This document shows, in pieces, positions 8,267-49,600 of a stretch of 64,000 bases of DNA; positions within the stretch are counted from its first letter, which is position 1, and every line of letters starts with the position of its first letter. Source of the stretch: Convolutriloba macropyga (Eukaryota); contig NC_134477.1 in the NCBI RefSeq assembly GCF_964194025.1, forward strand, positions 30,814,001 to 30,878,000. The letters are read 5' to 3'. Below the pieces are notes generated by a model. The model saw only the letters and a list, made by a program, of their open reading frames with translations, did no database searches and had not been told where the DNA came from. The position numbers were made by a program, and so were the translations under genes.

Positions 8267-10130
8267 TTAATTAGCTGAACTATTGAGTTGTTCTCCTGAG
8301 GTTTGCTTCAGTGTCTCTCGTTGCACTTCGTTGTTCATTGCAGGCTGATGTCCCTCAATTGATTCTGACTTCGGCCAATAATCTTCGCTTTTTTCTAGCC
8401 AGTTGGGTCCATTCCACCAAAGGTTTTTTTTGGCTAGGTTTGCGGCTGAGATCCCTCGTGATGCGCAATCAGCAGGATTCTCCTCCGTCGGCACGAAATT
8501 CCAATTGCTGGATGGAATGATGTTCTGAATTTTTGCAACACGGTTGGCAACGAATGTCTTCCACTTTCATGGAAAGTCTTGCAGCCAAGCAAGTGTTACC
8601 GTTGAATCTGTCCAGGCGTACACTTTTGTTGTCGGGAAACGTTGATCGCTCACAGATGATGATACCGCTTCCACCAAGTTTGCTCCAAGAAGTGCTGCAC
8701 AAATTTCCAACCGTGGAATGCACAAGCTCCTTATTGGTGCAACTCTGGTCTTTCCTGTCAACATCTTTGTGTGAACCGACCCGTCGAAAGAGTGTCGTAT
8801 ATACACAACTGCGGCGTAGGCTGTAGTTGATGCATCACAGAAGACGTGAAGTTCAATGTCCGATAATGTTGGTGAGATTGAAACTACCGTCCTGGGCAGT
8901 GTAATAGTTTCCAATTCCCTCAGTTGAACTCTGAGTCGGCTGTACTGTTGCTGAAGGCCTTTCGTCAAAGCTTTGTCCCATCCAAGTCGGTCCATCCAAA
9001 GCAGTTGTATAAAAGACTTGAACTGTATGGTTGTAGGTGAAAGCCATCCCAAAGGATCGAAGAGCCGGGTAACTTCCGACAGTATTTCGCGTTTTGTAGA
9101 TGGTGTCTTTTTGTCTAGGTTTGCTATGAAACTGAAGTGGTCTGGATTTGGGTTCCACTTGACGCCTAAAGTTTTTATACTGTAGTCGTCGCTTTTAATT
9201 GTCATCTCGTCGGTAGTTTCTCGAAAATTTGCAGGTAATCTTTCAACAAGTTCTGGGTTACTTGAAGTCCATTTGCGAATCTCAAATCCTGCCTTTGAAA
9301 GAACTGCTATGATTGGGTCCTGCAGATACATTGCGCTTTCCAGATCGGCTGCTCCTGTCAATAAGTCGTCGACGTACATGTCTGTCTTGATTCCTAGCTG
9401 TACATTTTTGTCCGTAACCTCTTCCGCTAAAACCTGTAATGGACGAATAAAATGGAACGCTGATGATGCTATTACGTACGTGACACGTGTCATCCTAAAT
9501 GTCTTTATATCTGTTGAGTTTGGTTCCTTCCAAAGTAGTCGATGATAGTCTTTATCTTCGACGTCCAGTTGCACTTGTCTGTACATTTTTGCAATGTCTG
9601 ATGAAAGGGCTACAGAATACATACGGAAACGGATCAGGATGCTGAATAGATCTTTCTGGATCTTGGGTCCCACCATCAATCTATCGTTCAAAGAAATTCC
9701 ACTGGTAGTCTTCGCTGAACCATCAAAGACTACACGCAGCTTCGTAGTTGTGCTTGAGTCTTTGAACACACAGTGATGGCTGAGATAGTAGCTTTTCTCT
9801 ATGGGCAGTAGCATCTTCTTTGCGGGTACTTCTTCCATGTGTCCTAGATTAATGAACTCATTGATGAACTCGTTGTATGGTCTGTACAGATCAGGCTGTT
9901 TCTGAAGTCTGTGAAGAAGACTTCTAAGTCTTTGTCGTGCTTGCTGCTGTGAATCCCCCTGTTCTCCAATTTCTTCCTTAAACGGCAGTTTTACGATGAA
10001 CCTTCCTTCAGGGCTTCTTCTTGTGGTTAACTTGAAGTGTTCGTCACATCTTTTCTTCGTCGGTCAGATGTTTAGTTGCAGGCACTTCCTCGATTTCCCA
10101 AAGACACAGTAAACTGACTTCAAATGATGA
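8267..10130 (-). pseudogene. BEL/Pao reverse transcriptase + RNase H (fragmented)
   Basis: KLRVVFDGS, DIAKMYRQV, YVDD, FDPLGW, FCDAS, WTDS and ENPADCASRG motifs. Confidence 0.92.
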
Positions 10131-10136
10131 CACAAA

Positions 10137-12039
10137 TCAGGTTTGCAAACTGGAAGAATTGGAAGTTTGCACGTTTTTGCGTCCGATTACTAACCAACCG
10201 AATACTGATGGTCGATAGGTAACGGGAATGTTTGGTTCTTTCAGTCGGTTGTTCCCAACCACCAAGTCCTCGTAGTGTCCAGCTCCAATGATTAGATCAA
10301 TTTGGGCGCGCTTGTTAAAGTCGGGATCAGCCAACTGTAGTTCCTTTACTGTCTCCCAATTGTCTGTGTTGATGTACCGAGAAGGCAAATCGTTTGTCAA
10401 TTTCGTTAAAACTGACGCGTCAATGATAATTGGTGCTTTATTTTTTGGTTGAATGCAGAGGTCTACAAATCCGCGATTAGTTGAGATTTCATTTCCTCCA
10501 AGTCCAAAAACACGAGTATTGTTCCTCTTTCTCTTTAGCTGAAGTCTTTGTGCTGCAGCTTCAGTTACAAGATTATTCTGAGATGCAGAGTCCAGAATTG
10601 CTCGCAGATATACTATTTCTTCTTGGACATTAACAGGAACAATTGCTGTTTGAAGAAAAATTTCCTGTGTCATGGGTGAGGGCTGCTGTTATCTTTTGAT
10701 CGATAGTTACTTGTTCTGAATTACTGCTTGAAGCTCCAGATGTAACCTTTTCCTGTTTCCCTGCGTTTGCTTTGCGGCTGTTTCCAAAAGAATTTTTCAC
10801 TTGATTGTTGACTTGATGCGCATCTTCTCGATGCAACAAGGTGTGATGCTTACGTCCACATTGGCGGCATGAAGAACCTTCGCAGTTCTCTGATCGGTGT
10901 CCTGGTCGCTGACAATTGAAACAAAGTCCTTTGAATTTGATCAACTGGGCTCGCTCCTTGACACCTATAACCTTTGAACTTCCCACATTTGAAAATTCGG
11001 TTTTCCTCTTCACAACATTTGCGTTGCTGATTCGTTGTCGTAACATGAGTATGAAGTTGTCTCTGTGCTTGATTTTGTTACGATTGCGATCGTTTTTCGT
11101 TATTTGATGAACTGCTGCTTGGTGCTGCTGACTCCAAGGCTTGAACACGTTTGTCCAGGAAAGTCTTTAGTTCCTGATAGGTCTGTAGTTCTTTCCCTTT
11201 TGAAGAAAGCTCCCAGAACTTTCATGTTTCGGTGGGCAGTTTTTCTGCGATGAAGTACACAAAGAAGGGGTCCTGATGCTCAACTGGTTGTCCCATGTTC
11301 CGGAAGAAAGTCTATGCACCTCAATTGTGTCGACAAGTTTTCGTAATTCCCGAGTGTTTTCGTTTGAAACTGGTCGATAGGAGACAATTCCATGGATATG
11401 GGCTCGCAGTATCTATCTTTTATTGTCGTATCGATTGTGCAAAATTTCCATTGCAACATCGAAGTTGTCGTCGGTGAGTGTGATTGAAGTTAACATCTTC
11501 GAGGCTTCTCCTTTCACTGCTGACTTCAGTTACTGCAATCTCAAACTGTTTGTCAACTGATCGTTATCTATTACAGCTCCCTTGAAGCGATCGAAAAACG
11601 AGATCCAGTCCAAGTAGTTTCCGGAAAAACTGGGCAAGTCGAGCTTCGGCAGATTGATGTTCTGTATATTTCTCGAAATCGTGGTGCCTCCGGCTGCAAA
11701 TGAGCTCTCTTGTGACGAGTGTCTTGTCTTTCGCTGAACAAACCGATGAACATAGTCAATGTTTTGGCATACCTTGTCGTCATACTCCCCTGTCTCAACA
11801 ATTTCATCGTCCAAGTTGTTGGTATCATCAAAAAGGGACTGAATCTTTTGGTTCTGCTCAGATAAGAAGGCTTGCTTCTTCTTCAAAAATTCAACTATCT
11901 GCTGCAGTCGCATAAGATCGTCTTCATTGAGAAGTGTGAACGGTTTGTGCATTATGCCCTCTGCTTCATTGTAGAGTTTTGTTGCAACTCCTCTGTGAGC
12001 CCCACGCGACTTTCGAAGAAGTTCTAGATTTTCTGGCAT
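10137..12039 (-). pseudogene. BEL/Pao gag (LPKLDLP domain, CCHC knuckles) and aspartic protease
   Basis: LPKLDLPSFSGNYLDWISFFDRF; CFNCQRPGHRSENC..CRQCGRKHHTLLH; protease RAILDSAS and DLIIGA. Stops and frameshifts present. Confidence 0.9.
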
Positions 12040-12604
12040 GTTTCTGATATGCTGTTCTGTGCTTTGTTCTTGATGCTGTTCTTTAGTTGTATTCTTTGGC
12101 TGTGTTCTTTGTCTTTATCTGTTGCTGTAAATCTTTTGTGACTAAAAGCTCAGAAAACAAGTTAAAACAGCGCAAAAGTTGTAAATATAGGGTTGTATCT
12201 ATCCCCCCAACAAAAGTGCGACCAAATTTAACGCGCGAACTTAGTCTTACTACCTCAAGGGGCAAAGTAAGCTAACAAAAACCGAGTTCTCGATGAGAAC
12301 TAGAGAGAAAGATTGACTTCCCCTGAAGTTTTCCAAAAAAATTTGCTGAATCTTGAGTATACAGTTACCCCACTAGATATCCTCTACCGGGTCCCTTGGT
12401 TAGATTAATCAACCTAGTTATACAAATTAATCAACTTGAATAACATGTGGGGGGATGATGGTATCTAGTGGGGGGTCCGCTTTTCAATATCCCTTTAAGT
12501 TTCCCCTTTTTAGGTTATCAACAAATTTTTGAGAGAGTGAATGCTTTGGGTGCTTAATGCTTTGACTATTTTATCCTTAAACTATTTTTCGGCGGACTAT
12601 TAAA

Positions 12605-12852
12605 TGTTGCGTCGCAACACTTATTTTTGTTGATTAGACTTGCTTTAAACGCTTTAAAGACTTAAATGTTTTATGCTTAAGAAGAACTCAAGCTCAAAAG
12701 GAAACAAGTGTTGTTGATAAAATCAGATGAAATTATGATTTCTTAGTTCAAATCACGTGGTAATTTATTGTTGCGTTTGTTGAAGAAGTCATCTTGAATT
12801 GAAGTTTTTAAGCTCTCGCAATATGAAGGTCAAAAGGTTGTTAACCACAACA
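12605..12852 (-). repeat. 5' LTR of element 1
   Basis: TG...CA ends; matches 6199-6446. Confidence 0.95.
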
Positions 12853-29689: not shown

Positions 29690-30308
29690 AAAGACTCGAA
29701 ACTTGATATACTCATGCGATAAAATTGCGTTCGATATATTGTTATGTTGACTTATAAATACTACGTTTCAGTATAGGATTTTTGTGTCGGCTGGTCGACA
29801 AAAGCGCAGCAAAATTTGTCTCTATCCGGTTTGATTTCTTAATTGTTAGTATAAACTTTTTATTCCTTCAATCCCCAGTTATTGCTGTGCGCGAATTTGT
29901 TTGTCACCCAATGAGCGGGGACAAGGCTCATTTCTTCCGTTCAACCCGATTGTGTGGGTTGATGATGACGAAATTTTGAGGACCCGATTGTGAGGGTTTC
30001 TGGGAACAAATAAAAGGCAAATACTCAATTCCGTGGGCACCGTTGTGATTTGTGGGCACAAGGTTGATCGCAAGAAAATTTTCTGAGAAATGACTTAGAA
30101 ATGGTTTCAACCATGATTTCCCCAGCCAAGCATACCTTAAATTTATGAAATCGGAAATTAAAATTCTTTAGAGACAATGCTATAGGCTCAGTTTAGTTGC
30201 TCTGGAACAGCCATTAATATAATCGTCCCACTGAATCGAAACTTGGTACATCTTGATAAAAAACATACTAAATCTTGGTAAATCTTGCCAAGATCTTGCC
30301 ATGGTACT

Positions 30309-30687
30309 TGTTACCGCGTAAATGAGCAACGCTATTTAAATTAAAGCGAGAATTTAAAGCGAGAAAGGATTACGTAATTTCTTAACCATTTAACATCTAA
30401 TATGCATAGAAAGCTCAGAAAAAGTTCGTGTAACATAATTTTTGTTAAGACTACTAATATACTAAATCGATTGCGCTCTTTTTAGGCTTAATATTTTTAT
30501 GTTTTCAAAATGTATCGGTGACCAATCTGAGTCGAAAATCTGCTCAGACAAAATACCTGCTAAAAAAGATCAAGCTAGATTTGCCGGGCCATTGAGATGG
30601 GCCTTTGCCTTAATGCGTTGTTGAATACAGTCGACTTTATCGTTTTGCTTCCTGAATTTACACATCGAAAGACTGTTATCAGCTTTA
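30309..30687 (+). repeat. 5' LTR of element 2
   Basis: Direct repeat of 40391-40769; TG...TA ends. Confidence 0.93.
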
Positions 30688-30787
30688 TTTTTGATGCCGC
30701 GACCGGCTTTAGCTTTTCTTTAGAAATAATTCTTTAGAGCCGAATTGTTATGATAAACGTATTAAATAGCAACCGCGACTGTACTGT

Positions 30788-31191
30788 ATGAGCAGAAGAT
30801 CACTCGCAACCGTGATAACCCAAACAGCAAGTCTTATATCTCAGACGGGGGCTACCATAACACGCTTCAACAGTTGGCATGTGCCTGCTTACTGTTATTA
30901 CAACTCAGAGGGACAAAAAACCGGGCAAGTCAGGACGCGATACAAGAAGCAGAACAGGCGGCCTGTGGCACCAATCAGTTCCAATTTTCATTTGATCTCT
31001 ACTTGGATGACACCTACCAGGAACAGTATACAGCCGAGGCACACCATTTGATTTTGAGTGAGCCTATCTACTTAATGGTGAAGGGTGACTTCAATCTGGC
31101 CAACTGGGTTGTGGTTGTCATTAGATGTTGGGCCACGTGGACATCTAACCCAGATGATGACTCATACGTCACTATTCAGTCAGAAATCTGA
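30788..31191 (+). pseudogene. Captured zona pellucida (ZP) domain fragment (end of ZP-N, linker, start of ZP-C), one frameshift
   Basis: ITRFNSWHVPAYCYY, then after a frameshift at ~30915-30930 GTNQFQFSFDLYLDDTYQEQY...LSEPIYLMV...VVVIRCWATWTSNPDD. This matches the ZP-C consensus F.(M/L).LY.D..Y / CWATPS.NP.D. Confidence 0.75.
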
Positions 31192-31779
31192 TGCGCACTG
31201 GTGTCAACCGAGCGGTCAATCTTTACAAAAATAGAAGAAGAGAAGTTTCAAAAAAACTGTAAGACTCGACCAAAACTTGGTTTTGATGCAATAAATTGAT
31301 TTTTTTCCGGCAAATCTAGTGCCCCCCATCGCCCCAGAAGGCTGATTTTTGAATAACGGTCACCGATAACCCACCCCATACACTTTTTTTTATTGAAAAA
31401 CATCGAATTTGAGAATTTTTGGTCAAAATTTTGGACTTGACCAAATCGGGCTAAATAATAGTTATTGGAGCGGGTAAAGTCTTATACGAAATAGAAATCA
31501 CGCGAAGCAAGAAAAATGTTTGAAAAAATTGACCAGATTTGAAAAAATTTGGGAAAAAATCTATCCGATCATCCTAGCATACTTATATAGTAGTTAGATA
31601 GATTAAAACGTTGTAAAAACAAATTTGGTCAAATTTTTTAAACTTCACAAAAAAGATCAGGTGACTGATTTTTTTTCACAATAAGCGCTTATTCTTGGTA
31701 ACTGGCGAAAATTGTACATTTAACATCAAGGTTCTGAGTTTGAGCAAAGCTCACATCAGTTATGTTGTAAAAACATTAT

Positions 31780-32419
31780 ATGGTTTTTGTATTAGCTGCT
31801 AGCTCACTGCATCACGCCATAAAAACTTTGCCTCAAGCGTTATATGACCATTTTAAAAAAAGGAATTTACGCATTACCGGGTCTGAGTTTCAACCCTAAC
31901 GCTTCGAAAGTCCAAAGAACAGCGCAGTTCCAGTTGGGTGATTTCTTTCATGATAAGAAGCGCCTAGTTATATGGCATGATGTAGTGAACAATTCGCTTT
32001 CACGTCATCGCAGTAACAACAACAAGCATTTAACACCTTCGCAGCTTATTTCAGTGCTTGAAAACTATCAGGAGCGCATAGAAGCTATAGTGTATTGCCC
32101 CAGAGAGGGAACTCCTGATATCTACGATCAGCTCAAGCGTAGTACTCTAGTTACCATCCATTTAGTGAAAAACATTGTGTCTAGACGTAAACAGAAAGAT
32201 CCTAGTTTACTTGAAGAGCACAGAGCATTACACCAAAGGCCTGCGCTTGAGCTGAAAACACTCACTATAGTCTTAGCTCATAAAAACAACCATCTGTCCT
32301 TGATAACACGCTCCCGACCGGAGAAACTTTCAAAGCGCCGTCGTAAAACGCTTCGCACCCGTCATGCGTTCGAGGAGGCGGAACTCACACAAGCCTTTGA
32401 TAACCTGAATGTCACTTAG
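31780..32419 (+). pseudogene. Accessory ORF (~212 aa), SGNH/GDSL hydrolase-like, single +1 frameshift in an A7 run
   Basis: ATG at 31780 gives MVFVLAASSLHHAIKTLPQALYDHFKK, joining the 31844 ORF at 31855-31861. Block-like motifs: VLAASSL (I), ALPGLS (II), LVIWHDVVNNS (III), ALHQ (V). Basic C-terminus KLSKRRRK. Confidence 0.55.
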
Positions 32420-33616
32420 TTTTGCGCTGTTGTAGGATTCTACCCGCTGACTGGCGATGTGACTTAGTTAACTCACGAGTTACGGGTTAGTTTGTGGTCA
32501 GTTCTTTCCAATAGCGCTTTACTAAACGTTTCGCTCTCCCCATTCTTCGAGTTTTTCACTACCGTCCGTTTTCCGCAGGTTATCTGGTTTCATTTTCCGC
32601 TTCCGTCCTTTTGTTTCCGTGTCACTTTGTTTCCTTCTATCCCCCGTTTATCTGTTGTATGATGTCGTATGTTGAATTTTTTGTTGTAGTAATTTTTTTC
32701 TGCTAGTATGCTGGTTGGTTGTTTAGTCTCGTTCCTTGCTAGGGTGTGATTTAAGTTCATTCTGGAGTTACGGCTGGTTTGTTTTGTGACTTTCACCACA
32801 CTTGTTTGCTAGCAATTTGTTGTAGCTTTATTAATTTTGGTAGTATGCACTTTTGTTGTCTGGGCATGGTGGTTTGCTAGGGTGTGACTTAAGTTTGTTC
32901 TGGAGTTACGGCTAATAAATTTCCTGACCTTTTCGACTTTCGGTTATACTACATTGTTCCTGTAAATTCTTTCATATTTGACGTTTTGATGCAGTTGATA
33001 AAGCCCCATAATGTTTTGTGCTAGTTTACCTGGCAGTAGCTTCTCTCCTTCTTTCCAGGGTGTGACTTAAGTTTATTCTGGAGTTACGGCTAGCTTGTTT
33101 GGTTGAGTTTGTTGCTGTGGTCTGCTTGCATTGATCTTCCCGGCTCCTTGCTTGTGGTTCGCCGTCTCCCTCCCGTGCTATCCCGGCTTCCCGTCCTGTC
33201 CCTCGCTATCCTCTCAACTTTCACTTCTCCTCCGTACCGTTTTCCCGTTTCGTCGCGCGCTATCCGCCCGACGTTTCCGCCCCGCCCGTGCCATTTTCCC
33301 GCTTCGTCGCGCGCTTTTCGCCCAACGTTCCCGTTTGTCCGTCTGGTTTCCCGTTGCGTCGTGCGTTACTCGTTCGGCGTCTCTTCCTTTCCGTCCCGTC
33401 TCCCTTCTGTCCGTTTCGCGCTTCCTGGGCACCGTTCTTTCTTTCTTTCGCCGGGTACGATTGTACTCGACGAACATCTTTGCTCTTTGGCGGTTCGCTA
33501 GGCAAACCGTCACACTAGGGTTCGGTATAACTCATTTGTGTTGTGCTGTTGCACGTGTATGTACTTTATATTAGTACCAAAGAAAACTTGTGGTTCCTGT
33601 TTTCATAAGATCGTGG

Positions 33617-36600
33617 TAACATTGCAGGAAAAATTTAACAAACTCTATAGTGCGAGGGCAAAATTAGAGGCTGAACTTAATAACATCTATGGTGAAATTA
33701 AGAATGCTGTTGACAAGCAAGACAGGAAAGTTAAGACTTAACGTCTGATTGTTAAGTGCGAGGATGCTTTTACTAGAGTAGTTGATAAGGAAGAAGAGCT
33801 CTTTGATCTGGCACAAAACAGTGAAGATCCAGATGCTGCCTGTGAGAACCTTGAAAAATGGTTAGAGACTGTAACAAAGAAAACTGATGAGTTCATTGCT
33901 GCTGCTCGAGGGTATATCAATACGGTCCATGACAAAGAGACAACAGAGCTGTATACCTCTCACCATTCAAGATCAAGTTCACATATGACTTCCTCAAAAA
34001 GACCAAGTCAGCGTCAACGAGACTTAGAAAAATCAAGACTCAAAAAGGAGGAACTCGAGAAACAAAATGAGGCAAAGCTTCGCATTGCTAGACAGCGTCT
34101 TGAAATTGAAAAACAAACAAAATTGCGGGAATTGGAACTTGAGCAGCTTGAGGAGGATCATCGCAAGGAAGTAGCTGCTGCAGCCCTTGAGGAAATTGAG
34201 TTGATGACAAAATCAAGCAGACGGGTCTGGTACAGACAAAATGAGTGGGCTCTTTACGGAAAGAAGTTCAGTCAAGAGCAACTTGTTCAAGATTGGGTTA
34301 ATTCGTCACCGGCCGGGAACATGGCAGATGTTGCAAACGAACCGAGTTTGCACTTTTCTGGTTCCATCGCCCAATCCAACCAAGCAATTGTCCAACGACC
34401 TTCCTCAACTCAACTTGCAAACTCACACTCCAATTTCAATACACATGGTCAAGTTGAGGCCAACATCAACCTCCCTGTCCATGAGCCGCAAGAACCAAGT
34501 AGTAGAAAAAATGTAGCCAATGAAGCACATAATGCAAACAACATCATGCAAGAGCAGCAACAACCTCAATATACGCCTCCATCATCAATAAACTTTGGTA
34601 TGCCAACTCAACTAAACACCCCAAACACAGCCCGACAACTGTCTCAAGCAACAATGCACTTCGATGGTTTACAGATAGATCATCAATTCCCGCGCAGGTC
34701 GAGCATGCCGGGACAGTTGAATTTAGTGAGCCCTCCGCATTCACCACCTTTAAATACACTCGTTAATGCTCCGCTAGTACTTAATACGCAACAAGCACAC
34801 ATAAATGTACCAGCCCCCCATCCCCCGTTCTAAACCCCGCACCACCGCATTTCCCGTTAATCCCACCAGCATTCCGCTTTCCTCCTTCGCCGCCACAAGC
34901 ACTCCCACTACACGCCACTAACACCGTAGCGAATAATGTCAATATGTTACCCCATTCTCCGCCTGCACCATTCATTTCCTCCGCAAACGTGTTTGTATCT
35001 CAATTAATTCATCCACCACCCCCACAACAGAGTTTTCAGCCCCAAAATTTTGTCCCTATAATCCACGCACCTCCTGCTCCTCCGGATCCAAATGTCTGGC
35101 GTTTTCCGGCAGCAGTCCCATCTATTGAAGTACCACCTGTACGAACATCTGCAAACTTATACACCGCACAACCGGCCCCGTTAACCAACCCTCATATCAC
35201 TACATCCCTCCGCTCCTCTCATGTACCAGCAGCAGCAGGCGCTCAAAATTACGTAACTTCAGACTTCATGCAAGCGAATCCATTTAGTTCTTCCACAGGT
35301 ATCGCCCACACCTTTGTCACTCCGATCATTCCGCCAACGTATGGAGCTACCGTTCCGAACCCGTTGTGTTGGGGTGGCCCGCCGCATCCCACACCTTCGG
35401 CTCCTTCTTTGGACTCTGCGGATTTGATAAAGCAGTTGGCGGAGGCAATTACTTATAAGAAGAACAATTCACTGCCCGAGTGAAAGTTGTCACAGTACAA
35501 TGGTGATCCAATGCAGTGGCACGAATGGTTCGGACAATTTAAAAACGCCATAGACGCACAGTCCTTGACTGATGATGTCAAGTTAACATACTTAAAAACT
35601 CTTGTAATTGGAAAAGCTAAAACCGCAATCGCTGAGTTCGTATACTGTGGTTTAATGTATAAGGACGCACTTAGTACACTCGAACGTAAATTTGGCCAAC
35701 CACAGGCAGTAGTCAGTGCACACTTAAACAACCTCAGCTCTTTTCCTCCACTTGAGATGCACAAAAGTGAAAACATCATAAACTATTCTGCAACAATTTC
35801 AAGTCTTGTTGGGGTCTTTAAATCACTTTCATATGACTCAGACCTTAAGAGCGCCTCACTTCTCAACACGGCTGTGCAAAAATTGCCGCCCAATCTGAAA
35901 GAGTCTTGGTCACTCTTCACAGTGAAGAAACATTGGTTTAAGCCAACACTCCTTGACTTCAACGATTGGTTGAAGGAGAAGGCCGAGGCACATGAATCAA
36001 ATTTAATGAATCAACCTACATCGAAGGCAAGAACTGAGGATAACAACAACTCAGTTAGAAAGACCAAAGTAGCCTCAAAAACATTCGCTGCTAACACGCA
36101 AACCAAGGGCACTCAAAGACCAGCCTCAACATCGGCAACGCCTCCAACACCCCACTGCATTGTGTGTAAGGGTAACCACCGCATCTGGGAGTGTAGGGTA
36201 TTTAAAGAAAAGTCTCCCACTCAGCGAGCAAAGGTAGTGGCGGAAGCAAAACTGTGTTTATAATGTTTGAGAGCAAAGCATATGTTTAGGCAATGCCCAA
36301 ATCCCAGGAGATGCAGGAAAGACGGATGTAACAGCTCCCATAATACACTTCTCCATGGAGCTGAGAGGGTTTATCCATCAAAATCCCCTTCAAATAACAA
36401 CATCAGTAATTCTAATGCTGGCGCAAATCAAAGTAAACTTCCTAGTGTCCAATCATCGAGTAATACCACTACTTTGTCATCTGTGAGTATTGTGAAAGGC
36501 CTCCTTCAGGTGACTGAATTACAGTTGAAGAGCTCCTCCGGTAAAGATACCACGGCTTTAGTTTTGCGTGATACCGCTTGCAGAAATCTTGGGTGTCCAA

Positions 36601-36760
36601 TGATCTTGCAAATAGACTTGGTTTGCACGGTACAGCAAAGAAACTAACAGTCAAGGGTATAAATACCGAGAAGGTTGTAGACACTAAGTGAGTTGAACTG
36701 ATTGTAACACCACGCAACAACCAAGCATTTGAACCATTTAAAGCAAGCCCTTACGTAAAG
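33617..36760 (+). pseudogene. BEL/Pao gag (coiled coil, Pro-rich linker, DUF1759-like domain, CCHC knuckles) and decayed protease
   Basis: YNGDPMQWHEWFGQF, KLTYLKTL, CIVCKGNHRIWEC, CRKDGCNSSHNTLLH, ALVLRDTAC. In-frame stops present; start approximate. Confidence 0.88.
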
Positions 36761-36766
36761 GAAGAT

Positions 36767-39700
36767 TTGAATGCAGGCGCCGATGTCATTAACATTAAAG
36801 CACTTCAGGAAACATACCCGCTTCTAGCAGTTCTAGACCCAGTTACATATTGCTATGGAAACATCGAGATGATACTTGGACAGGATGAGTATCATGCCAT
36901 CCGCCCGTTAGAGTTCTTCGCTGCCGACGAGAAGTCCTCGCCCTTCGCTGTTCGCTTGCCCATAGGTTGGGTTCTAAGCGGCCCTCTACCGTCGTCTTCA
37001 GGTTTAGTCTCGACTTGTTTCAAAGCTAATTTGGAGCAGGATTTCGATCTCGCTAGTCAGGTAAAATCTTGGTACGACATGGAGGCGTACGGCGCACTTA
37101 AGCAAGTAGACCCACGATCCTCCTCGAATGCACGTGCACATGAAATTCTTGAAAACACCACGGTGCATAATGGAAAAAGGTACAATGTCGGAATGCTATG
37201 GGCTGAAGATAACATCGAACTGCCCAAAAATTATTTCTCAGCTCTTGTTCAATTAAAATCTTTGGAAAAGCGGCTTGCGAAAGACCAGACTTTAAGGGAA
37301 AAGTACTCGAATACCATCAAAGAGGACTTCGACAAAGGCTACGTAGTAAGGATCAAAGATGCTCATAAGGTAGAAGGTCGCTCGGAACGACAGTGGTACC
37401 TACCACACCATCTGGTTGTTAACCCGAACAAGCCGGGCAAGGTCCGCAGGGTACTAAACGGAGCAGCTAAATTCCATGGCGCATCTCTTAATCAGTCGTT
37501 ACTCACCGTACTTGACTTACCGCAAAACCTAATCTATGTACTCCTACGGTTCAGACAACATCCATTTGCCGTATCCGCCGACATCGAGGGAATGTTCGTT
37601 CAGGTTGGAGTGTTACCATGTGATCAGCCATCATTGCGCTTTTTGTGGCGGGAGGACCCCACATCAAATGTTGTGGTACACCAGTTTACACGCCACATCT
37701 TTGGGGCAAAAGATTTGCCCAACTGCGCCAACTACGCGCTTCAACGCACGGCAAGTGATAATGCTAAGGATTACCCAGAAGCTGCAAAAGCCGTCCTTGA
37801 GAACTTCTACATGGACAATTACTTAGACTCAGTGGAATCCCCCGAGAGGGCCCTCATTAGGTCGAAGGAATTGGTACATCTTCTCCATCTAGGTGGGTTC
37901 AAGCTTACTAAGTTTGTAAGCAATGTACCAGATCTGGCTGTCCGAATTGATGGGTCAGCTCAATCCACTGAACCGAAGGTCATCGTTTCATCCAAGAAGG
38001 AATCAATGCACGTGCTTGCGCTTAAGTGGGATCACAACAACGATACTGTGGTTGTGAGTAGAGGTACTAACAGCACCATCACAAAAAGTCTAACACAGCG
38101 CTTGGTCTTAACTCTTGTGTCAAAGGTCTACGACCCGATTGGTCTTGTCGCACCGTTCACTGTTGGTGCTCGGTTAATCTTGAAAGACATTTGGCGTGTC
38201 AATGGACAAAGTTGGGATGACGAGTTACCTAAAGACACAGTTGACATATTCCTTGCCTGGTGTCTTGAACTGCCGCGGTTAGCTGAGATCACTATACCGA
38301 GAAGTTACTTTTCAGGACCATTCCAACATCTTGAACTCCACATGTTTGGTGATAGCTCGCAAGACGTATTCAGTGCAGTAGGTTTTCTTAGGGCTCAAGT
38401 AACTTGCACCTCCGGGGAGATTATAACAGAGCTGGCGTTTGTCTTGGGCAAGGCCCGTGTTGCACCTTTTAAGGTAATGACATTTCCTAAGTTGGAATTA
38501 CCAGCCGTTCTTCTCGATGCCCGTTTAAAACGGAAATCTGTCGAGCATTAACGGTTACAGTGGACAAAGTCTTTATGTGGACAGATAGTACCATCGTCTT
38601 GCAGTGGGTAAAACTCAACAAACAAACACCCCTTCTTCATTGCAAATTGTGTTAGTGAAATCTTGGAGAACACCAGCGTTGACCAAGGGAACCACGTCGC
38701 CAATTGTGATATTCCGGCAGATGCTGGCACTCGTGGTATGTCCGCTGAAATTTTGCAATTAAATAGCTGGGTGAGGGGTTCTGACTTCTTGAGAACTAAG
38801 CAATTCCCTTTTGTACCAAATACTGACGTCGTTGATAACATCAAGCTCGGCGTTGTAACTAAGGAACAAGAAGATGACTCCATCTCATCTCTAGCCGCAT
38901 CCGTAACGAAGCCCCCTAAGGAACAAAGCATTAATCTAATCCCGTTTGATAATTTCAGTTCTTGTCAAAAATTACTTCGTGTCACCGCATATGTGCTCCG
39001 TCTTTTACCATCTCATGAAAGTTACCGTACCTTAGACGGCAGCAAAGCCGACCCTGTTGAGCTTGACGAAGCCGCGCGTCACCTTCAGTACTTGGTTCAA
39101 GGAGAGTCCTTTAATACTGAAAGAAAGGATCTTCTTGACAACAAATCCGTTCAGAAGAGCAGCCGCATTGCTCAGTTCATTCCGTTTATTGGACCTCATG
39201 GTCTCATCCGTTCCTCTGGTCGACTCCGACGGCTAGTGGAAATTGACTTTGACACTAATCATCTTATCGTGCTTGATGCGCGTCATACTTTTGTTAAACT
39301 GTTTCTGCGGCATACCCATTTGACGAACCATCATCGGGGCATCGATTACATAAGGTCAAAGGTACAAGAACGTTATGCCATCCTAAAACTACGTTCCACA
39401 CTGCGTTCCATCAAATCAAACTGCGTCTTGTGTAGAAAGTTCCGTGCAGCAACCATTCAACCTATCATGGCAGACCTCCCAAAGAAGAGACTCGCATACC
39501 AGTCTCCTCCCTTTACCAACACCGGGAATGATTACTTCGGTCCATTCTACGTCACAGTTCGTCGGACTACCGAGAAGAGGTGGGGATTTCTCTTCACTTG
39601 TCTCACTACTCGTGCTGTCCATGTTGAAGTTGTCCCGTCTATGGACACTAGTTCCTGTATAATGGGAGTTGAGCAGTTCGTCTCCCGTCGGGGTACTCCT

Positions 39701-40380
39701 GCTATGATTTTGTCGGATAACGGTACGAACTTCATTGGAGCGGAGAAAGAGCTCCGTGAATGTGTGGAAAAATGGAATACGCTTAATATCGCTGCCGAAC
39801 TTGCCAATAAGTGCATTAAATGGAGGTTCAATCCACCCAGTGCGCCACACCAAGGTGGCATCTGGGAGAGGTTAGTTCGTAGTTTTTAAAGAGTACTGTA
39901 CTCTATCCTCGGTACGCGTCGCCTCACAGATGAGGTTTTGAACACTACTTTTTGTCTGGTCGAACACGCACTAAATTCACGTCCCTTAACGCCTGTGAGC
40001 GCCGACCCGTCCAACCTAGGCGCAATAACACCTAACCATTTTCCTACTGGTAACCAAACAACCAGAATGCCGTCTATCGTTGGCGTTCGATCATCGTAAG
40101 CGGTACGCCCGTGCACAGTCCTACGCTAATGCGATTTGAGCACGTTGGCTTAAGGAGTATGTACCTGCGCAGAAATGAAGAGCTAAGTGGCAGAAGCCTG
40201 CCGAGCATCACCTCAAGGTTGGTGACTTACTTTGGATTGTTGAAGAAAGCAACCCTAGGGGTTACTATCCAACTGCTCGAATTGAAGAACTTCGTTACGG
40301 CTCCGACAGCGTCGCCCGCTCCGCCGTCGTACACACGTCGTTCGGATCGCTCGTACCGATCCTCCCAACATTTTCTTCCA
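36767..40380 (+). pseudogene. BEL/Pao pol: RT, RNase H, integrase (decayed)
   Basis: YLPHH, RRVLNGAA, ADIEGMF, FYMDNYL, YDPIG, MFGDSS, PADAGTRG, DYFGPF, SDNGTNF, GGIWERLV motifs. Confidence 0.93.
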
Positions 40381-40390
40381 GGCCGGAGGA

Positions 40391-40769
40391 TGTTACCGCG
40401 TAATTGAGCAACGCTATTTAAATTAAAGCGAGAATTTAAAGCGAGAAAGGATTACGTAATTTCTTAACAATTTAACATCTAATATGCATAGAAAGCTTTG
40501 AAAAAGTTCGTGTAACATAATTTTCGTTAAGCCAACTAATATACTAAATCGATTGCGCTCTTTTTAGGCTGAATATTTTTATATTTTGAAAACTTATCGG
40601 TGACCAATCTGAGTCCAAAATCGGCTCAGACAATATACCTGTTAAAAGTGATCAAGCTAGATTTGCCGGGCCATTGAGATGGGCCTTTGGCTTAATGCGT
40701 TGTTGAATACAGCCGACTTTATCGTTTTGCTTACTGAATTTACACATCGAAAGACAATTATCAGCTTTA
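40391..40769 (+). repeat. 3' LTR of element 2
   Basis: Follows the PPT and is followed by TSD GTACT. Confidence 0.93.
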
Positions 40770-41923
40770 GTACTCACCAAGAAAACGTCAAGATATGTAC
40801 GAACTTGCAAGTTCTTTGCATGGCTGTCAAGAAAAAAGATCTTGGCAAGATTTCCAAGAAATATTAAACATATCATGGCAAGATATATCAAATATTAAAA
40901 GTTCAATAGCACTTAAGAATGAGATGTAGCAGGAAATCATAAGATTAAGCAAGAATAATCAAGAAATAGCTAGAATTATCAAGAATTATCAAGAATGTAG
41001 GAAAATACCGCTCCTGTTAATTTATTATTCAACAAATGAGTCGCTTTTTTCCCGTATAAAAAAATTTTTAAGTGGATGCTAGCTCGGTATGAACATAGTA
41101 CACACCTTATACAGGACAGCCACCGTTAAGGCCCCCACTAATGTCTCAAAGAAATCTAAAACTTGTAACATGACATAAGACAAAAAAAGCGTTGAAAACC
41201 AAGACAGCAAAAAAACAACACTCGGCAAGTTGAATACATACAAAGCAACTACAGTATTTAAGCATCTAACATCAAATAGGAAAAACAAAAAAAAAGTCAG
41301 CTTAAAAACCAAAAACTTTCATAACTCCATTTTTTTTAAAAAACACTAATTCTGACAGTTTAGGCTCATCGACATTCTTTTTGCAATTGAGAGTGTGAGG
41401 CTTTTTACAACGACGACGAGAACGGTATTCTACATGTTTTTACGATTCCAAGAGAAGTTTGGTATTCTACAGGTTTTTACGAAGCGGAGAGGAGTATTGG
41501 AATTTTTTATCCCCCACCTATCTAACTCTATTGGCCACCGCCTATGCACCCTCCACCATCTCTCTACCCTTCCCCGTATATACTAAACCCCTTCTCCACC
41601 TAGCTAACACCCACCATCCTACCTCCTCTTGTCTACCAGCCCCCACCATCAACCCAACCCCTCAAACTGAAAAGTTCGTTTATTTCTTTGCTCTTTGTTG
41701 CTTCCGATGTAGGTAGAACACCAGCTTTTTATCTTCAATTAGTCTGACTTAGAGATTATATAGCACGACTCTTCGAGCCGTTTCCGGTATTCTACCGGCT
41801 ATAATTTTTTTAGCTAATGCAAATGGTGCATGAGTTAAACTTTGATTTTGAATATTGAATTCTGTTTTAGAAATGTGGTTCATTTTTTCGAACACTACTT
41901 TACTTTAACAGTACCCTTGTTTT

Positions 41924-43766: not shown

Positions 43767-46122
43767 CACTACATAGTTATTAGGAAGTGATGCAGTATTC
43801 AAGGTCGAAATGTGATTTTGAGAAGCTTTCTTCACACAACAGTCCTTCCAACAGATACCCCCACCAATCAGCCCCCCCACCACCACCATTGACCTACTGC
43901 TCAACAATACGCCCCCTTCTAAACTGTTCGCCTCACCAGTCGCTCGAAAAACTTAGCAAGAAACTCTTTCTTCTACAGAGCAAGCTATACACACTTGGCA
44001 TTTTAGCGAAGAAGAACCAGTTTGCACGAGACCCAAGTTTTGTACAAAGTCAATTAATAATAAATCTTAGGTGTAATATTAAAAGATTCTTTTCAATTGA
44101 TTTTTAGTTGAAAATTTTCTTTTTGCAGGTTTATCTTGCAATTGTATCTAGCTCGAAAAAAGTAACTGGTTCAGTCGGAAAAAGTTATTAATTATGGACA
44201 AAAATTGAAATAGTTTTCTTAAAGTTAAATTAAAAAGGCAAAATTAAAACAGATCCACAACGGTTTATCATATTCTTTTGTTTTGATAGAAAATTTCTCG
44301 ACCTTCTTATAATCAGATTAGGATTTTTTCTTCTGTCAGAAAAATCTAGAATTATTCAAGGGACCTGAAGTGAAACGCAAAATTAATTCAAGTTATATAG
44401 CAAATGTAACTGTTAGCTTTTTGGCGTTATAAAAGCTCTATAATCCTGAAAAACAATTGTAACTGATCAAAAATAAACACTAAAATTGAAGAAGTTTGAT
44501 GCAAGATTGCAATAACGACTTGCAAATTTTAATATGCCAAAATTGGTACACGATTATTTATGCGTCGGATTCCGATACAGACCACTGACAACCAGAACTA
44601 CTCAGCAGATCTCTTACATCCATCCAGCAAACAAGAGCATCATCGTCTCAAATCTGAGATGCGAAAAATATAAAGTTTTTCATTAAAAGTAATCAGAAAA
44701 CTCCTCCTTCGATTTGTAACTAATCTGTCTCAAAAGAAAATTTTGACAGCACGTCTGTAGAACCCCAATACGAACCAACATATTTTCCCAATCACCTGAA
44801 AAACACACATCTTAAGTCACAACTGAAAAACAACAAACTCCTACCGGTAATCTTTGAGGAAAATTCGACCACGTGGGAAATTTGTAAAACATTACAGAAT
44901 CAAACAGCTCTAAAATAAAAAGATCAGAAATCACACCCTGTATTATACCTAGTTATGCAACACAGAGCACAAAAATATTCGCAAGCATAGCAAGGTAATA
45001 CTAATGTCTAAATCTCAAGACATGGCCAGTCATCCAAATACAAGATTGCTTCGATTACTAGACTAGCAAATCTATGCCAAATCTTTTAGTGCTGCCAACG
45101 GTCTGTGGTCGAATTTTGATCCATACAGTAACCAACGCATTTTATTGGATAAAAAGGAGTCATTTGACTTCTATCGCAAAGAAACTTATACATCTATGTT
45201 ATCGTAGAGCCCCTCTGTCATTTTGAAGCTCTGAAACCCTGCCTTAGCAACAGCTCCTTCTAGCGCACGAAACACCGACATTTGACCACCGGTTCGCTGA
45301 ATTTGAAATCGCTGATCATCTAGTCGCTGACAACAGAAGTTAGTAATTAACAGTGATTTTCTATAGTTTCGTAGTACATAGAGCGTACAATTTAAAACAT
45401 AAACATCTTATGCTCCTTGGGAAAATGGATAAGCTGAAGAGAGCAATCCACATTAATACACACTCTTAAGCACAGCTTTCGATACACAATACGACACATG
45501 GGCTCGGTAAAAAACAACATTTTATTTTACGCCTTTAAATAACAAGTGCGGACAAATATGAAACTCTCCCTATAGTTTTTAACATCTAGCTGCAGTGCAT
45601 TTCATAACCGCATACTGGCGGATAACTCATCGTCCAACTCTCTTCGTAAACACACTCATACAGATTGTCTTTGTTATCATCGTCATTTCGAAAATTCAAA
45701 GAAAAACTTTTGCTTCTTGGTTCCCTAAAGAAAAAACTTACACACTGATGTCTGTTCCGAAGTCACAAATTGTTTTAAACAAAAAAATGAAAGATTTGGA
45801 TCTATTCTGTTTTGGGCTCCAGCGTAGTGAGCATAAATCTTTTTGAACCCCAGGCGAACGTGCAATTTTTTTTACAGAGTAAGGTGCTGTATAACAAAAC
45901 ATAATTTGTAACTGCGGGTCATGACAAACATTGGGAGGGGGGGGGGACAAAATAGATCCCGCAATTTTTTTGTAAATCGACAATTTAGCAAAACCCAGCC
46001 ACTGATATTTAGTACATATGTTCTCATTGTTTACAACACTCAACAAAAAGATTTGATAAAAGAGTACAACCAGAAAAATGGTTCTCCATAAAATAATTGA
46101 AATCCCCCTAATAGTTACATAT

Positions 46123-46664
46123 CCCGGGTCGAGGTTTTTGGGTAAAATTTTGTAACAAATGCGGTGAATGCGGTGAAATTTTGTAAGAAATGCGGTGATT
46201 GCGGTGAATGCGGTGAAAATAAATATTTCAGCGCATTTCACCGCATTTCTTACAAAAATTCACCGCAAAATTCACCGCTAATGTAAGAAATGCGGTGAAC
46301 GCGGTGAATGCGGTGAAAAAAAATAATTCACCACATTTCACCGCATTTCTTACAAAAAATTCACCGCATATGATTTCCAAAGTTTACTCAATCTGATTTA
46401 AATTCACAAGAAATTCCAAAGCTGTGAGTGAAACTTGGCGCTGTGGACTAAGCAGTTGAAGGCATGCAGGAGGTCAGAGGTTCGATCCCGTGTGGGGATG
46501 ATTCTTTTTTGTAAGAATACTGAAAACGCGGTGAAAATAAATAATTCACCGCGAGTCACCGCATTCACCGCTAAAAGATGTAAGAAATACGCGGTGAAAA
46601 TTATTTTTTTCACCGCATTTCACCGCATTTCTTACGAAAATTCACCGCCAAACCTCGACCCGGG
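46123..46664. mobile_element. MITE of the CCCGGGTCGAGG family with tRNA-like cassette
   Basis: TIRs CCCGGGTCGAGGTTT / AAACCTCGACCCGGG with AT flanks. A box at 46436, B box GGTTCGATCCC at 46479. Near-copy of 4086-4676. Confidence 0.88.
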
Positions 46665-49600
46665 ATTGGTCAGGGGGCTTTCATTGTGAACAAATTATTC
46701 GTAAAAAGAGCAATACTGTCGTTTTTCCCCAAGGATTTTTTCATTGAAAGGAAAAATGCAAAAAAATTGTAGATAATTATATCGTGAAGAGACTATCGCA
46801 AAAGCAGCGGTTGCAAAACCGAAATCCGTCTCGTTCATTGTTGACACACAAGAATAGAATAAAACACATTTTTTTCACAGCCCACAGACCGACTGTCCCG
46901 ACTAAGCAATGAAGACTCGGTAGAATACTATAATCTAGACGCTCGTTTACTAAGACATCCCTCAAAAGACTACCACCACTTTATAACACAAACGAAAAAT
47001 TCTGATTCACTATCAATGCATCTCTAAAAATACAGACACACAAAAAAATACAAAAATCTCCTCTTCTAGAAAATTTCAAGAGAGCGAATATTAGCACAAC
47101 ACAATAAACAGAACTATGTTCATTTTCCCACAAAAATAAATATTTATAACCCTCTTAAACAGGGCAGCGAAATACCTCAGGTCATTCAACCCATACCCAC
47201 CAATATTATTACCTTCAAGGAAACTTATTAATCAAAATCTTGTCATCCAAGACAAACTTGGCGAATAATGAATTCTCTTGTTAACCATGCATAATTTCAA
47301 TTTTTCTCCAATAGGAAATATAAAAAGAGTAAACACTCTTTCTTCAACAGTTTTTTAATGAAAAGATAAGCAAAATTTTATTTGAACACTGGTCTACTGG
47401 TTGGTGCGGGAAACCTCCAAAAAATTTAAGCAAACGAAAAACGACTTGGAAACTTTTCCCTACCATTAGGAAAGTCGAAGTTAGCTGCAAATTCATGAAA
47501 TACAGTCACTTTGTAGTCCTTTTCCTACTCAATTTTTTCTTTCAGCTCTTCTTCCCAATCGAAAAATATTTTGTCCAACTCTCTCTTAACTTCTAAAATT
47601 CTCAGCTCCATCTCTCTAATCTTCTAATTTTGTCTCAACCCTCTCTTAATTTTTCAGGTTCTGGACACATTCTCTCTCTTAGCTTCTAAATCTTCTCAAC
47701 TTTCTCTCTAGATTATCTTCCTGCACTTGGTAAAAGAGCCTAAATTGTATAACTGTTGTATTCACCTCTCTGGTTTTTGCACTCTCCACACTTTGTACTC
47801 TCCACACTTGGAAGGTTCACAATGGAAAATCACTCGTTTCAACGCAACAGAGCCGGTAAAACTCGGCGGCAAATTCAGCCAGTTTGCTCAAAAAACATTC
47901 TTCAAATTATACTTCTCAGTCACAGTCAATAATGAACAACCATTCCTCCTCAGTGATAACTGAGTTATTCTCACGACAACGCCTGGAGATACATTACAAA
48001 AGTATTACATACGCAAAAAATTTAGATAAATAATAAATTTCAGAACAAAGGATATCATTTTTCACAAAAAAATTTAAATCGGATTTTTCAAAATGAAGCA
48101 AGATATTTCTTCTTTGCACTCAAATTCCAAAACCTAGCAATTCCTAAAATCTTTAAGCACCTGTAAAAAGATGTAGTTTAAACACAAAAATTGGAAGCTA
48201 TTCTAGTTTCATACGACTTTACTTTCTTCAAAGATTTTATGAAAAGGAAAGACTAGCTCCAATTTCTATTATCAGTCGTATCCGTACACTAATTTCTTTT
48301 TGTATCGAAAAAACAACTCAAATAGCAATTTTTTGGGAAAATTTTCCTTCGTTTTGTAATTGCTTCTACAAACACAATTTCATTTCGCCAGAAACTCGCA
48401 TGGCGGCAATCCAACTAAGTAACCTCATTCAATTCGTTTACTTTTTAAATTCTGTCGAGCGACCACTATTGGATTTATTACTGTAATATTTGTCGCGATT
48501 CTAACAATTAGTAATGATGAAAATTATTGTCCTAGTCAAAATTTTACAATTCCGGTCCCTATCGACCTAGACCCCAGCACACCCTCATTCGAACAAGTGC
48601 CGACGTGTTGATACAACGACTCCTCAAAGCAGCCGACTTCCAAAAAATCATCATGAAAACTTTCAAAAAAAATGCGAGCTCAATAAACTGAAAAAGACCC
48701 CTAAAACTTCAATACACCTTTTTGGTCTGTAGATTAACCTCATCCCTGTGGACACTCTCCCCATATGTTTGCCGAATCAATAACGCTTCATCGGCTCCAG
48801 TAGCCTACCAATTTAAGCAACAACTAATTTCACATAACATATCACCGTGTTTAGTTTTATATATAGCAATAACAGCTTTGCTACAAATTTCTTTAACACC
48901 GGTTCTGCCACGAGCAGCACAATTACAAATAATATTTTATTCAAGATCTCCTATTATTGTTCCTATACTTCAATAAATTTAATTAAACCAACAAAAACGC
49001 AATGTTCAAATTCATCACAACCAGTGCAGAGTGTCTCAAGATTTTGAAAAACACTATAAAATATTAGCCTAGCGATTTTTGTCCCAAACGAGTTGTCAGA
49101 CAATGACTCTTCAAGCACATAATTCTCTTCACTAACTGCTTCTCAAAAAGCAAACAACCCTTTTAATCCTCATCAATGACTTACTACAAAAACTTAGAGA
49201 GAGTACCCTCTCAAGAACACTCGATTTTGAAATACACTATACTGAGTTGATAAGCAGCAAAGGATTTTTAACGAACACACCTCAAATTTAAAGATCTTTA
49301 CTTCCTTAACAAAGCAAAATAATGGAATGCCTTTTGCTTGATAAACAGAAACAAGATTCTGTAATTTAGAAAGTTGTTGAATGGAAAAAATATAACAACT
49401 GCCCTTCTACAATAACAATTGGAATACGAAAAATAAAAAGTTATTACATTTTTTGTCGTTGTGACATTATAAGTAATAGCGAAAGCAGTCAACTCTTGTT
49501 TTTCCTCCAAAAAAAACACGTCTTCTAAAATTTATCTGCCTTTCTCTTTACTGTTATCCCTTTTTCATTAAGTTTCTCATCAAAATCTCTCAAGCCATCC

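What the first reader, a model, noticed from the sequence alone, without database searches (positions are those of the whole stretch)
30788..31191. Host ZP-domain coding fragment captured just after the PBS
Seen: two overlapping ORFs join with one frameshift into ITR...CYY-linker-F.F.FDLYLDDTY...CWATWTSNPDD, with no intron. Known: this pattern matches ZP modules (uromodulin, cuticlin and egg-coat type extracellular polymer proteins), and LTR elements capture mRNA by template switching. Inference: transduced host sequence that could seed small RNAs against the parent gene or new chimeric genes.
Basis: partly seen in the sequence, partly recalled or inferred. Interest (0 to 1): 0.7.

Follow-up and report, generated by a model that had tools for sequence, protein, structure and literature searches.

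The report
Host exon riding in a retrotransposon
A jumping gene in an animal genome picked up a roughly 400-base piece of one of the host's extracellular-matrix (ZP) genes and seems to have been copied a few more times with it; such capture is a known process, and the piece now looks like a broken passenger rather than a new gene.

Summary
The ZP fragment is real (Pfam ZP-C, E=1e-9). It lies 60-75 nt after the primer-binding site of a decayed BEL/Pao LTR element (30309-40769, 5-bp target duplication). A parent-like contig in public run X5 matches 30780-31184 at about 94% and reads on in frame into more ZP-C, so the piece is host-derived. There are two frame breaks, not one. 'No intron' does not show mRNA capture: the piece ends within 3 nt of where relatives appear to have an exon end, so it looks like a single exon. 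Element-type contigs share a 2-nt difference absent from parent-like contigs and are 2.6-6.2 times deeper in three DNA-like runs, which suggests re-copying after capture. One element-type contig in an RNA-like run bridges the fragment into its flank. Best reading: one exon, probably with short intron flanks, taken from an unspliced ZP template during reverse transcription and carried as a non-coding passenger. Capture from spliced mRNA remains a close rival. Small-RNA or new-gene roles are untested. LTR-mediated capture, also by Pao elements, is published (PMC5131818).

The parts
30304..30308 (+). 5-bp target-site duplication, left copy
   Evidence: identical to 40770-40774; X5 loose ends at 30305/30309 run on into sequence like the right flank, i.e. 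the empty site of the host repeat
30309..30687 (+). 5' LTR, 379 bp
   Evidence: 23 of 379 positions differ from the 3' LTR (8 transitions, 15 transversions)
30688..30706 (+). primer-binding-site-like stretch
   Evidence: position directly after the LTR; an X5 contig with a different upstream end joins at 30692; primer tRNA not identified (no tRNA in the window)
30707..30765 (+). AT-rich flank before the ZP piece: element leader or co-captured intron, unresolved
   Evidence: GC 27% over 30706-30769 against 47% over 30770-31184; an AG ends at 30769; low depth in X1-X3
30766..31187 (+). host ZP gene fragment: end of ZP-N, linker, first half of ZP-C; sense orientation; two frame breaks (near 30830-30855 and near 30936). 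Firm limits 30780-31184
   Evidence: Pfam PF00100; relatives P0003, P0006, P0009; parent-like contig X5 record 25 with 23 other letters and 4 gap letters
31188..31260 (+). low-copy flank after the ZP piece: co-captured intron start or sub-lineage leader, unresolved
   Evidence: total contig depth at 31224 is 157/232/114 in X1/X2/X3, like the ZP piece and unlike the element body; the contig graph forks at 31187/31188; no Pfam or Rfam match
31780..32419 (+). decayed copy of a conserved ~212-aa ORF of unknown function in the high-copy part of the element's 5' region
   Evidence: 144 relatives among 232 candidates, best 90% identical, one cluster of 432 members; two-frame match to P0012; no Pfam or PDB match at cut-off
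33610..36647 (+). gag region, broken by stops and frame changes (start approximate)
   Evidence: DUF1759, E=5e-15, in frame 35484-36263; ORF list
36692..40403 (+). pol region (RT, Pao RNase H/Peptidase_A17, integrase, DUF5641), broken
   Evidence: Peptidase_A17 E=2e-28, Integrase_H2C2 2.7e-5, rve 6.9e-6, DUF5641 1.7e-7
40380..40390 (+). polypurine-tract-like stretch
   Evidence: purine-rich run directly before the 3' LTR
40391..40769 (+). 3' LTR
40770..40774 (+). target-site duplication, right copy

Best explanation
A BEL/Pao LTR lineage took up one exon of a host ZP gene, probably with short stretches of the flanking introns, into its 5' leader just after the PBS. The most likely route is reverse transcriptase switching onto an unspliced (nascent or read-through) ZP transcript packaged with the element RNA, and switching back. 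Because gag-pol was not replaced, the chimera could be copied again: a few copies share a 2-nt difference that the parent lacks. The window holds an older, decayed copy. The fragment is a non-coding passenger transcribed in sense with the element. Shown: ZP identity, position inside one bounded element, a parent-like sequence ~94% identical that continues in frame, and the shared difference. Inferred: that the ends are exon ends, that the flanks are intron, the template-switch route, the copy number, and that X5 is an RNA run.
For: Element bounds and target duplication. Pfam ZP-C. X5 record 25 matches 30780-31184, and its loose end reads T-C-K-V-D-P-T-F-E (read by hand), like N-C-F-K-D-D-T-F in P0009. 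The window frame ends 21 residues after the C-W-A-T cysteine. Full-length relatives have the next Cys at that offset in 17 of 18 motif matches. 3 of 3 short single-ORF relatives lack that Cys: P0006 stops at exactly offset 21, P0007 and P0003 run into unrelated residues. This is the pattern of an intron just before that Cys. A random break would fall this close about 1-2% of the time. GC steps from 27% to 47% at about 30770, next to an AG. The flank 31188-31260 has ZP-like depth (114-232 at 31224), not element-body depth (14,000-596,000 in the bins from 31561 on), in X1-X3. At 30936, element-type against parent-like contig depth is 125.0/48.7, 149.7/35.0 and 93.5/15.1 in 3 of 3 DNA-like runs. 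Precedent for template-switch capture by Pao elements and for re-copying: PMC5131818, section 5.
Against: The base after the predicted exon end is C, not the G of a GT donor, and 2 of the last 3 exon bases differ from the parent-like contig. Three changes in four bases is unlikely at ~6% divergence unless loss of the donor was favoured. Rough depth bookkeeping puts the start of the mRNA-like match at 30749-30764, upstream of the AG at 30769 (it assumes an unseen contig). The parent's genomic flanks were not seen, because the tables were cut (4138 loose ends and 31652 pieces not shown). The genomic origin of P0003, P0006 and P0007 is assumed, not checked. X5 is listed as 'DNA?'; if it were DNA, the parent would have no intron at this place. 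Contig depth is not a copy number. The end of the LTR is also low in depth, so a low-copy leader is possible without any intron.
Confidence: 0.4

Rival explanations
1. Classical LTR-mediated retrocopy: template switch onto the mature, spliced ZP mRNA and back, the 3' switch falling 0-3 nt before an exon junction; both flanks are element leader.
For: The match to the mRNA-like contig stops at 31184 and the next bases look unrelated, with no GT at 31188. X5 holds the parent-like contig at depth 2441, which suggests an abundant template. [quoted passage not shown] The depth estimate allows the match to start upstream of the AG at 30769.
Against: No exon-exon junction is shown inside the piece. 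Both ends lie near apparent exon limits. The downstream flank has the depth of the ZP piece, not of the element family. In PMC5131818 the retrocopy replaced part of the internal ORFs in all 15 Drosophila cases; here gag-pol is present.
Confidence: 0.28
2. DNA-level capture: a genomic piece (exon plus intron edges) was copied into an already integrated element by gap repair, gene conversion or a nested cut-and-paste or rolling-circle vehicle, then spread by re-transposition or segmental duplication.
For: It predicts the same exon-with-flanks anatomy and low-copy flanks. Repeat-like depth begins again within 31259-31409, so a nested piece cannot be excluded.
Against: No inverted repeat of 40 nt or more and no direct repeat of that size bounds the piece (shorter ones were not searched). 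The orientation is sense to the element and the site is next to the PBS, as expected from a reverse-transcription route (inference).
Confidence: 0.15
3. Exon trapping by splicing: an element transcript spliced from a leader donor to the host exon and from the exon's donor back to an element acceptor (cis, between two copies flanking the exon, or trans), so the exact exon was inserted without intron sequence.
For: Both ends lie near exon limits. The contig graph forks at 31187/31188 in X1-X3 (distance to contig end 37 at 31224 and 39 at 31226; record 9 ends at 31186), as it would if a ZP-less path joined at the first base after the exon.
Against: 2 of the last 3 exon bases differ from the parent-like contig. 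The fork can equally be a single-base variant among copies. The depth of the flank leaves room for at most about one ZP-less copy.
Confidence: 0.12
4. Not a capture: a real exon of a ZP gene or pseudogene lying between two separate element insertions, or an assembly chimera.
For: The window's own letters at 30917, 30991 and 31057 occur in no contig of the four runs, so the exact window copy was not seen independently.
Against: Matching 5-bp target duplication and empty-site reads. No other ZP exon in the 64 kb: tblastn with six ZP proteins finds only this locus, and an 18-nt piece of the parent's continuation has 0 matches at up to 3 mismatches. Independent contigs bridge the ZP end into the flank (X3 record 17, X5 record 26).
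Confidence: 0.04

Closest known systems
LTR-mediated retrocopies in animals (PMC5131818; abstract, passages and section 5 read, supplements not read), including the Pao element BATUMI and mosquito BEL18_AG
   Same: A partial host coding sequence lies between the two LTRs of one element, in sense; several copies share differences from the parent; the chimera appears co-transcribed.
   Different: There the copies were found by exon-exon junctions and replaced part of the internal ORFs. Here no junction is seen, the piece looks like one exon, it sits in the 5' leader and gag-pol is still present. Junction micro-similarity could not be tested.
TART-A capture of nxf2 (PMC7785250; abstract only)
   Same: A retroelement carries a fragment of a host gene that is still close enough to match small RNAs.
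   Different: TART-A is a telomeric element (non-LTR, recalled), and the captured gene is one the paper links to silencing of these elements, with antisense piRNAs shown. Here the gene is an extracellular ZP protein with no evident benefit to the element, and no small-RNA data exist.
ZP-module proteins (uromodulin, ZP2, choriogenin H); nearest full-length relative P0009 (546 aa, unnamed)
   Same: End of ZP-N, linker and first half of ZP-C. P0009 274-445 aligns to a uromodulin-labelled solved chain (28yj_A, E=6.6e-8).
   Different: Only about 140 of the roughly 260 residues of a module (module size recalled), with frame breaks. No signal peptide, furin site or membrane anchor. The parent's subfamily (egg coat, cuticle or other) is not determined.
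Extra ORFs in LTR elements of bdelloid rotifers (PMC5408684; passages read)
   Same: LTR elements carrying acquired non-gag/pol sequence; possibly relevant to the neighbouring 212-aa ORF.
   Different: Those are intact ORF3s in addition to gag and pol. The ZP piece is a broken fragment in the leader.

Membership tests
BEL/Pao LTR retrotransposon | Paired LTRs with a short target-site duplication | tested here: met
   379-bp LTRs, 356 of 379 identical; 5-bp duplication
BEL/Pao LTR retrotransposon | gag DUF1759, then RT with Pao RNase H (Peptidase_A17), integrase, DUF5641, in that order | tested here: met
   (the rve and Integrase_H2C2 hits are below their curated cut-offs; the other three are above)
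BEL/Pao LTR retrotransposon | PBS complementary to a host tRNA 3' end | tested here: inconclusive
   position fits and a second LTR type joins the same stretch; no tRNA available to compare
ZP-module protein | ZP-C domain match above Pfam cut-off | tested here: met
   39 bits against 24.6, profile 2-73 of 133
ZP-module protein | ZP-N domain | tested here: inconclusive
   no Pfam ZP-N hit for the window frames or P0009; indirect only: P0002 matches P0003 (E=2e-15) and P0009 (E=2e-8), whose ITR...CYY stretch aligns to 28yj_A
ZP-module protein | Complete, secreted module in one reading frame | tested here: not met
   half of ZP-C only, two frame breaks, no in-frame ATG before 31075; filed as a fragment, not as a gene
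LTR-mediated retrocopy (sense of PMC5131818) | Host coding piece between both LTRs of one element | tested here: met
LTR-mediated retrocopy (sense of PMC5131818) | Exon-exon junction inside the copy (intron loss) | tested here: inconclusive
   none seen; parent-like contigs in X1-X3 are continuous over 30936-30991; the rest of the parent's gene structure was not seen
LTR-mediated retrocopy (sense of PMC5131818) | Copy replaces part of the element's internal ORFs | tested here: not met
   gag and pol domains all present downstream; not filed as a member in this strict sense
LTR-mediated retrocopy (sense of PMC5131818) | Micro-similarity at both switch points | not testable with these tools
   needs the ZP-less ancestor and the parent's flanks; no genome is held
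LTR-mediated retrocopy (sense of PMC5131818) | Further copies sharing differences from the parent | tested here: inconclusive
   shared 2-nt difference at 30936 and 2.6-6.2 times the parent-like depth in 3 of 3 DNA-like runs; separate insertion sites not seen
TART-A/nxf2-type small-RNA targeting of the parent gene | Antisense small RNAs from the captured piece and reduced parent expression | not testable with these tools
   no small-RNA data; contigs show neither strand nor level

The most novel reading that the evidence does not exclude
The element acquired an exact host exon by splicing (exon trapping) into its leader without losing gag-pol, spread as an autonomous sub-lineage, and its transcripts now feed small RNAs that tune a highly expressed ZP matrix or egg-coat gene.
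Probability: 0.06. Interest if true: 0.65.

Novelty: new member of a known kind. Interest (0 to 1): 0.3.

Why it matters
It is a clean, checkable case of host-gene capture by a BEL/Pao element in an animal that seems to lack an annotated parent gene in the databases searched. If the flanks prove to be intron, it is a kind of capture that screens based on exon-exon junctions (as in PMC5131818) cannot see, so LTR-mediated capture of single exons from unspliced RNA may be undercounted. Parent, sister copies and a likely chimeric transcript all exist in public runs, so the mechanism can be settled with one genome assembly. On present evidence it is a passenger with no shown function.

Tried and rejected
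No genome is held for the window, so parent locus and sister loci could not be read. Word-indexed protein searches for longer relatives found nothing at E<=0.001 (3 candidates; 5648 candidates); this is weak evidence, and no full-length parent protein was found. Names and sources of the seven ZP relatives could not be looked up. Viral contigs: no relative of the ZP piece or of P0012. Prokaryotic genomes: none for P0012. Metagenome contigs: 3 loci of 205 pattern matches, rejected as chance because they match only 11-28 residues and are not hit by P0003 or P0009. No RNA holder listed. A PBS-like echo just after the ZP piece was rejected: 89% of shuffles score as well. Rfam over 30250-33750 gave one sub-threshold match, snoR25, E=0.43, rejected. 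The flank frames have no Pfam match at cut-off. An SGNH/GDSL-like nature of the 212-aa ORF (recalled resemblance) found no support: no Pfam or PDB hit, no usable atlas hit, model pLDDT 43, so no fold search was run. The atlas placed P0009 among ZP clusters only at scores of 0.79-0.83, a lead only. The window differs from the sister-type contig at 7 of 403 positions against 12 expected from half the LTR divergence; not significant (P=0.08). Earlier scan findings: none. Paper searches: 0 papers hold 'zona pellucida' + 'LTR retrotransposon' + 'gene capture'; 0 hold all six terms on read-through exon transduction; some searches were seen as listings apart from the three papers cited. The library lacks most subscription journals.

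Full report
Verdict. The finding is a real host ZP-gene fragment inside a decayed BEL/Pao LTR element. It is probably one exon, probably re-copied a few times, and has no shown function. The route of capture is open between an unspliced and a spliced template.

The element. Two 379-bp LTRs lie at 30309-30687 and 40391-40769 and differ at 23 of 379 positions; the same five bases flank both ends. Contigs of run X5 leave the window at 30305/30309 and go on with sequence like the right-hand flank, which is the empty site of a host repeat. Between the LTRs are DUF1759, Peptidase_A17, integrase and DUF5641 matches in BEL/Pao order, spread over broken frames. A PBS-like stretch follows the 5' LTR (30688-30706) and a purine run precedes the 3' LTR. 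The primer tRNA was not identified.

The fragment. Frame 30766-31191 matches Pfam ZP-C at E=1.1e-9, above cut-off. A full HMMER search of 1.84 billion representatives with the last 76 residues gave 7 hits at E<=0.001; 7 of 7 match Pfam ZP-C, 6 of 7 above cut-off. The nearest are P0003 (42%), P0006 (57%) and the full-length P0009, whose residues 274-445 align to a uromodulin-labelled solved chain, including the ITR...CYY stretch. Against P0003 and P0009 the homology runs in the first frame, moves to the second frame for ITR...CYY, and returns. So there are two breaks, near 30830-30855 and near 30936, which cancel and leave a stop-free 141-codon frame with a wrong-frame middle. No other ZP exon lies in the window.

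The parent. I laid 4 of the 5 listed runs (X4 left out, same sample as X3) on 29900-34400. In X5, record 25 (1008 nt, depth 2441) matches 30780-31184 with 23 other letters and 4 gap letters. It then leaves the window and reads T-C-K-V-D-P-T-F-E (hand translation of the loose end), which matches the continuation of ZP-C in P0009. This is a parent-like sequence about 94% identical. X5 is listed as 'DNA?'. I take it as RNA-like because its ZP bins are at 2460-2655 and its element-body bins at 12-203, the reverse of X1-X3 (ZP bins 104-344; body bins from 31561 on, 14,000-596,000). That is my inference, and the tool warns that runs found with a gene cover it by choice.

One exon, not an intron-less mRNA. 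Counting from the cysteine of C-W-A-T, full-length relatives have the next cysteine at offset 21 in 17 of 18 motif matches (P0004, P0005, P0008, P0009). All 3 short single-ORF relatives lack it: P0006 stops at offset 21, exactly as the window does, while P0007 and P0003 run into unrelated residues. I read this as an intron just before that cysteine, assuming the short ORFs were called on genomic DNA, which I could not check. The window's match to the parent ends 0-3 nt before this point; a random break would do so about 1-2% of the time. At the 5' side GC steps from 27% to 47% at about 30770, beside an AG. Parent-like contigs in X1-X3 are continuous over 30936-30991, so the parent has no intron there either. 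The flank 31188-31260 has the depth of the ZP piece, not of the element family, which fits intron taken along with the exon.

Against that reading. The window has C where a donor's G should be, and 2 of the last 3 exon bases differ from the parent. A rough depth sum puts the start of the mRNA-like match at 30749-30764, upstream of the AG. The LTR's own 3' end is low in depth too, so a low-copy leader could explain the flanks. The parent's genomic flanks were not among the rows shown (380 letter rows, 58 gap rows, 4138 loose ends and 31652 pieces were cut). I give 0.40 to an unspliced RNA template, 0.28 to spliced mRNA, 0.15 to DNA-level capture, 0.12 to exon trapping by splicing and 0.04 to no capture.

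Sister copies. At 30936 each of the four runs holds both a parent-like contig without the window's two extra letters and an element-type contig with them. Depths are 125.0 against 48.7 (X1), 149.7 against 35.0 (X2) and 93.5 against 15.1 (X3). Element-type records 9 and 17 differ from the window at 7 and 9 letters and have one 2-nt gap elsewhere, so the first break seems private to the window copy or its assembly. The window's letters at 30917, 30991 and 31057 occur in no contig. This fits a small ZP-bearing sub-lineage that was copied after the capture, with the window as a further, decayed copy. Depth is not copy number and separate insertion sites were not seen, so segmental duplication is not excluded. 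X5 record 26 (351 nt, depth 214) is element-type and bridges 30921-31267, a hint of a chimeric transcript if X5 is RNA; strand and level cannot be read from contigs.

Function. The ZP frame has no in-frame ATG before 31075 (38 codons), and the copies share a break in the linker, so a ZP-like protein is unlikely. The piece is in sense. Small RNAs against the parent would need antisense or cluster transcription, which was not testable. The TART-A/nxf2 case (PMC7785250, abstract only) shows that such targeting exists, but there the captured gene bears on the element's own silencing; a ZP gene offers no evident gain (inference).

Known context and novelty. PMC5131818 (abstract, passages and section 5) describes template-switch capture by LTR elements across animals. 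It includes the Pao element BATUMI, mosquito BEL18_AG, multi-copy retrocopies sharing differences from the parent, and switch points near exon junctions in BLASTOPIA. The present case works like these but is not filed under that strict class: gag-pol was not replaced and no exon junction is shown. No paper in the held library joins ZP, LTR retrotransposon and gene capture, and none holds all six terms on read-through exon transduction; the library is incomplete. I rate it a new member of a known kind, interest 0.3.

Noticed in passing
window 31780-32419 (+): Decayed copy of a conserved ~212-aa ORF between the ZP piece and gag. It has 144 relatives and a 432-member cluster but no Pfam, PDB or atlas match. 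Its motifs recall SGNH/GDSL esterases (recall only, not supported by any search). Overlapping contigs link it to downstream sequence up to about 33200. It may be a family-wide accessory ORF upstream of gag or a nested element.
   Followed up: partly
window 30309-30687 and 40391-40769: Both LTRs end TG...TA rather than the usual TG...CA, and differ by more transversions (15) than transitions (8). The LTR core is very deep in X1-X3 but its last ~30-100 nt are not, and loose ends at 30585 and 30692 show other LTR end types.
   Followed up: partly
window ~30239-30308 and 40770-40890: The element sits inside another repeat whose two halves look palindromic (MITE-like); similar short units form a tandem array at 22938-23081.
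   Followed up: no
window 6200-12853 (-): A second, younger BEL/Pao element; 4 differences in the 248 LTR positions compared.
   Followed up: no
window ~58000-64000 (-): A third, decayed BEL/Pao element running off the window (Peptidase_A17 hit at 59687-60166).
   Followed up: no
window 4081-4681 and 46119-46667: Two copies of a ~550-600-bp MITE-like element with ~50-bp terminal inverted repeats.
   Followed up: no
window 19786-21900: A ~2-kb array of ~8-nt units with very low GC and strong strand skew; it produces several long stop-free frames that are not evidence of genes.
   Followed up: no
window 32736-33109 and 33130-33500: Three 58-nt direct repeats followed by a GC-rich, pyrimidine-rich stretch just before gag; the deepest part of the element in X1-X3, with many length variants.
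   Followed up: no
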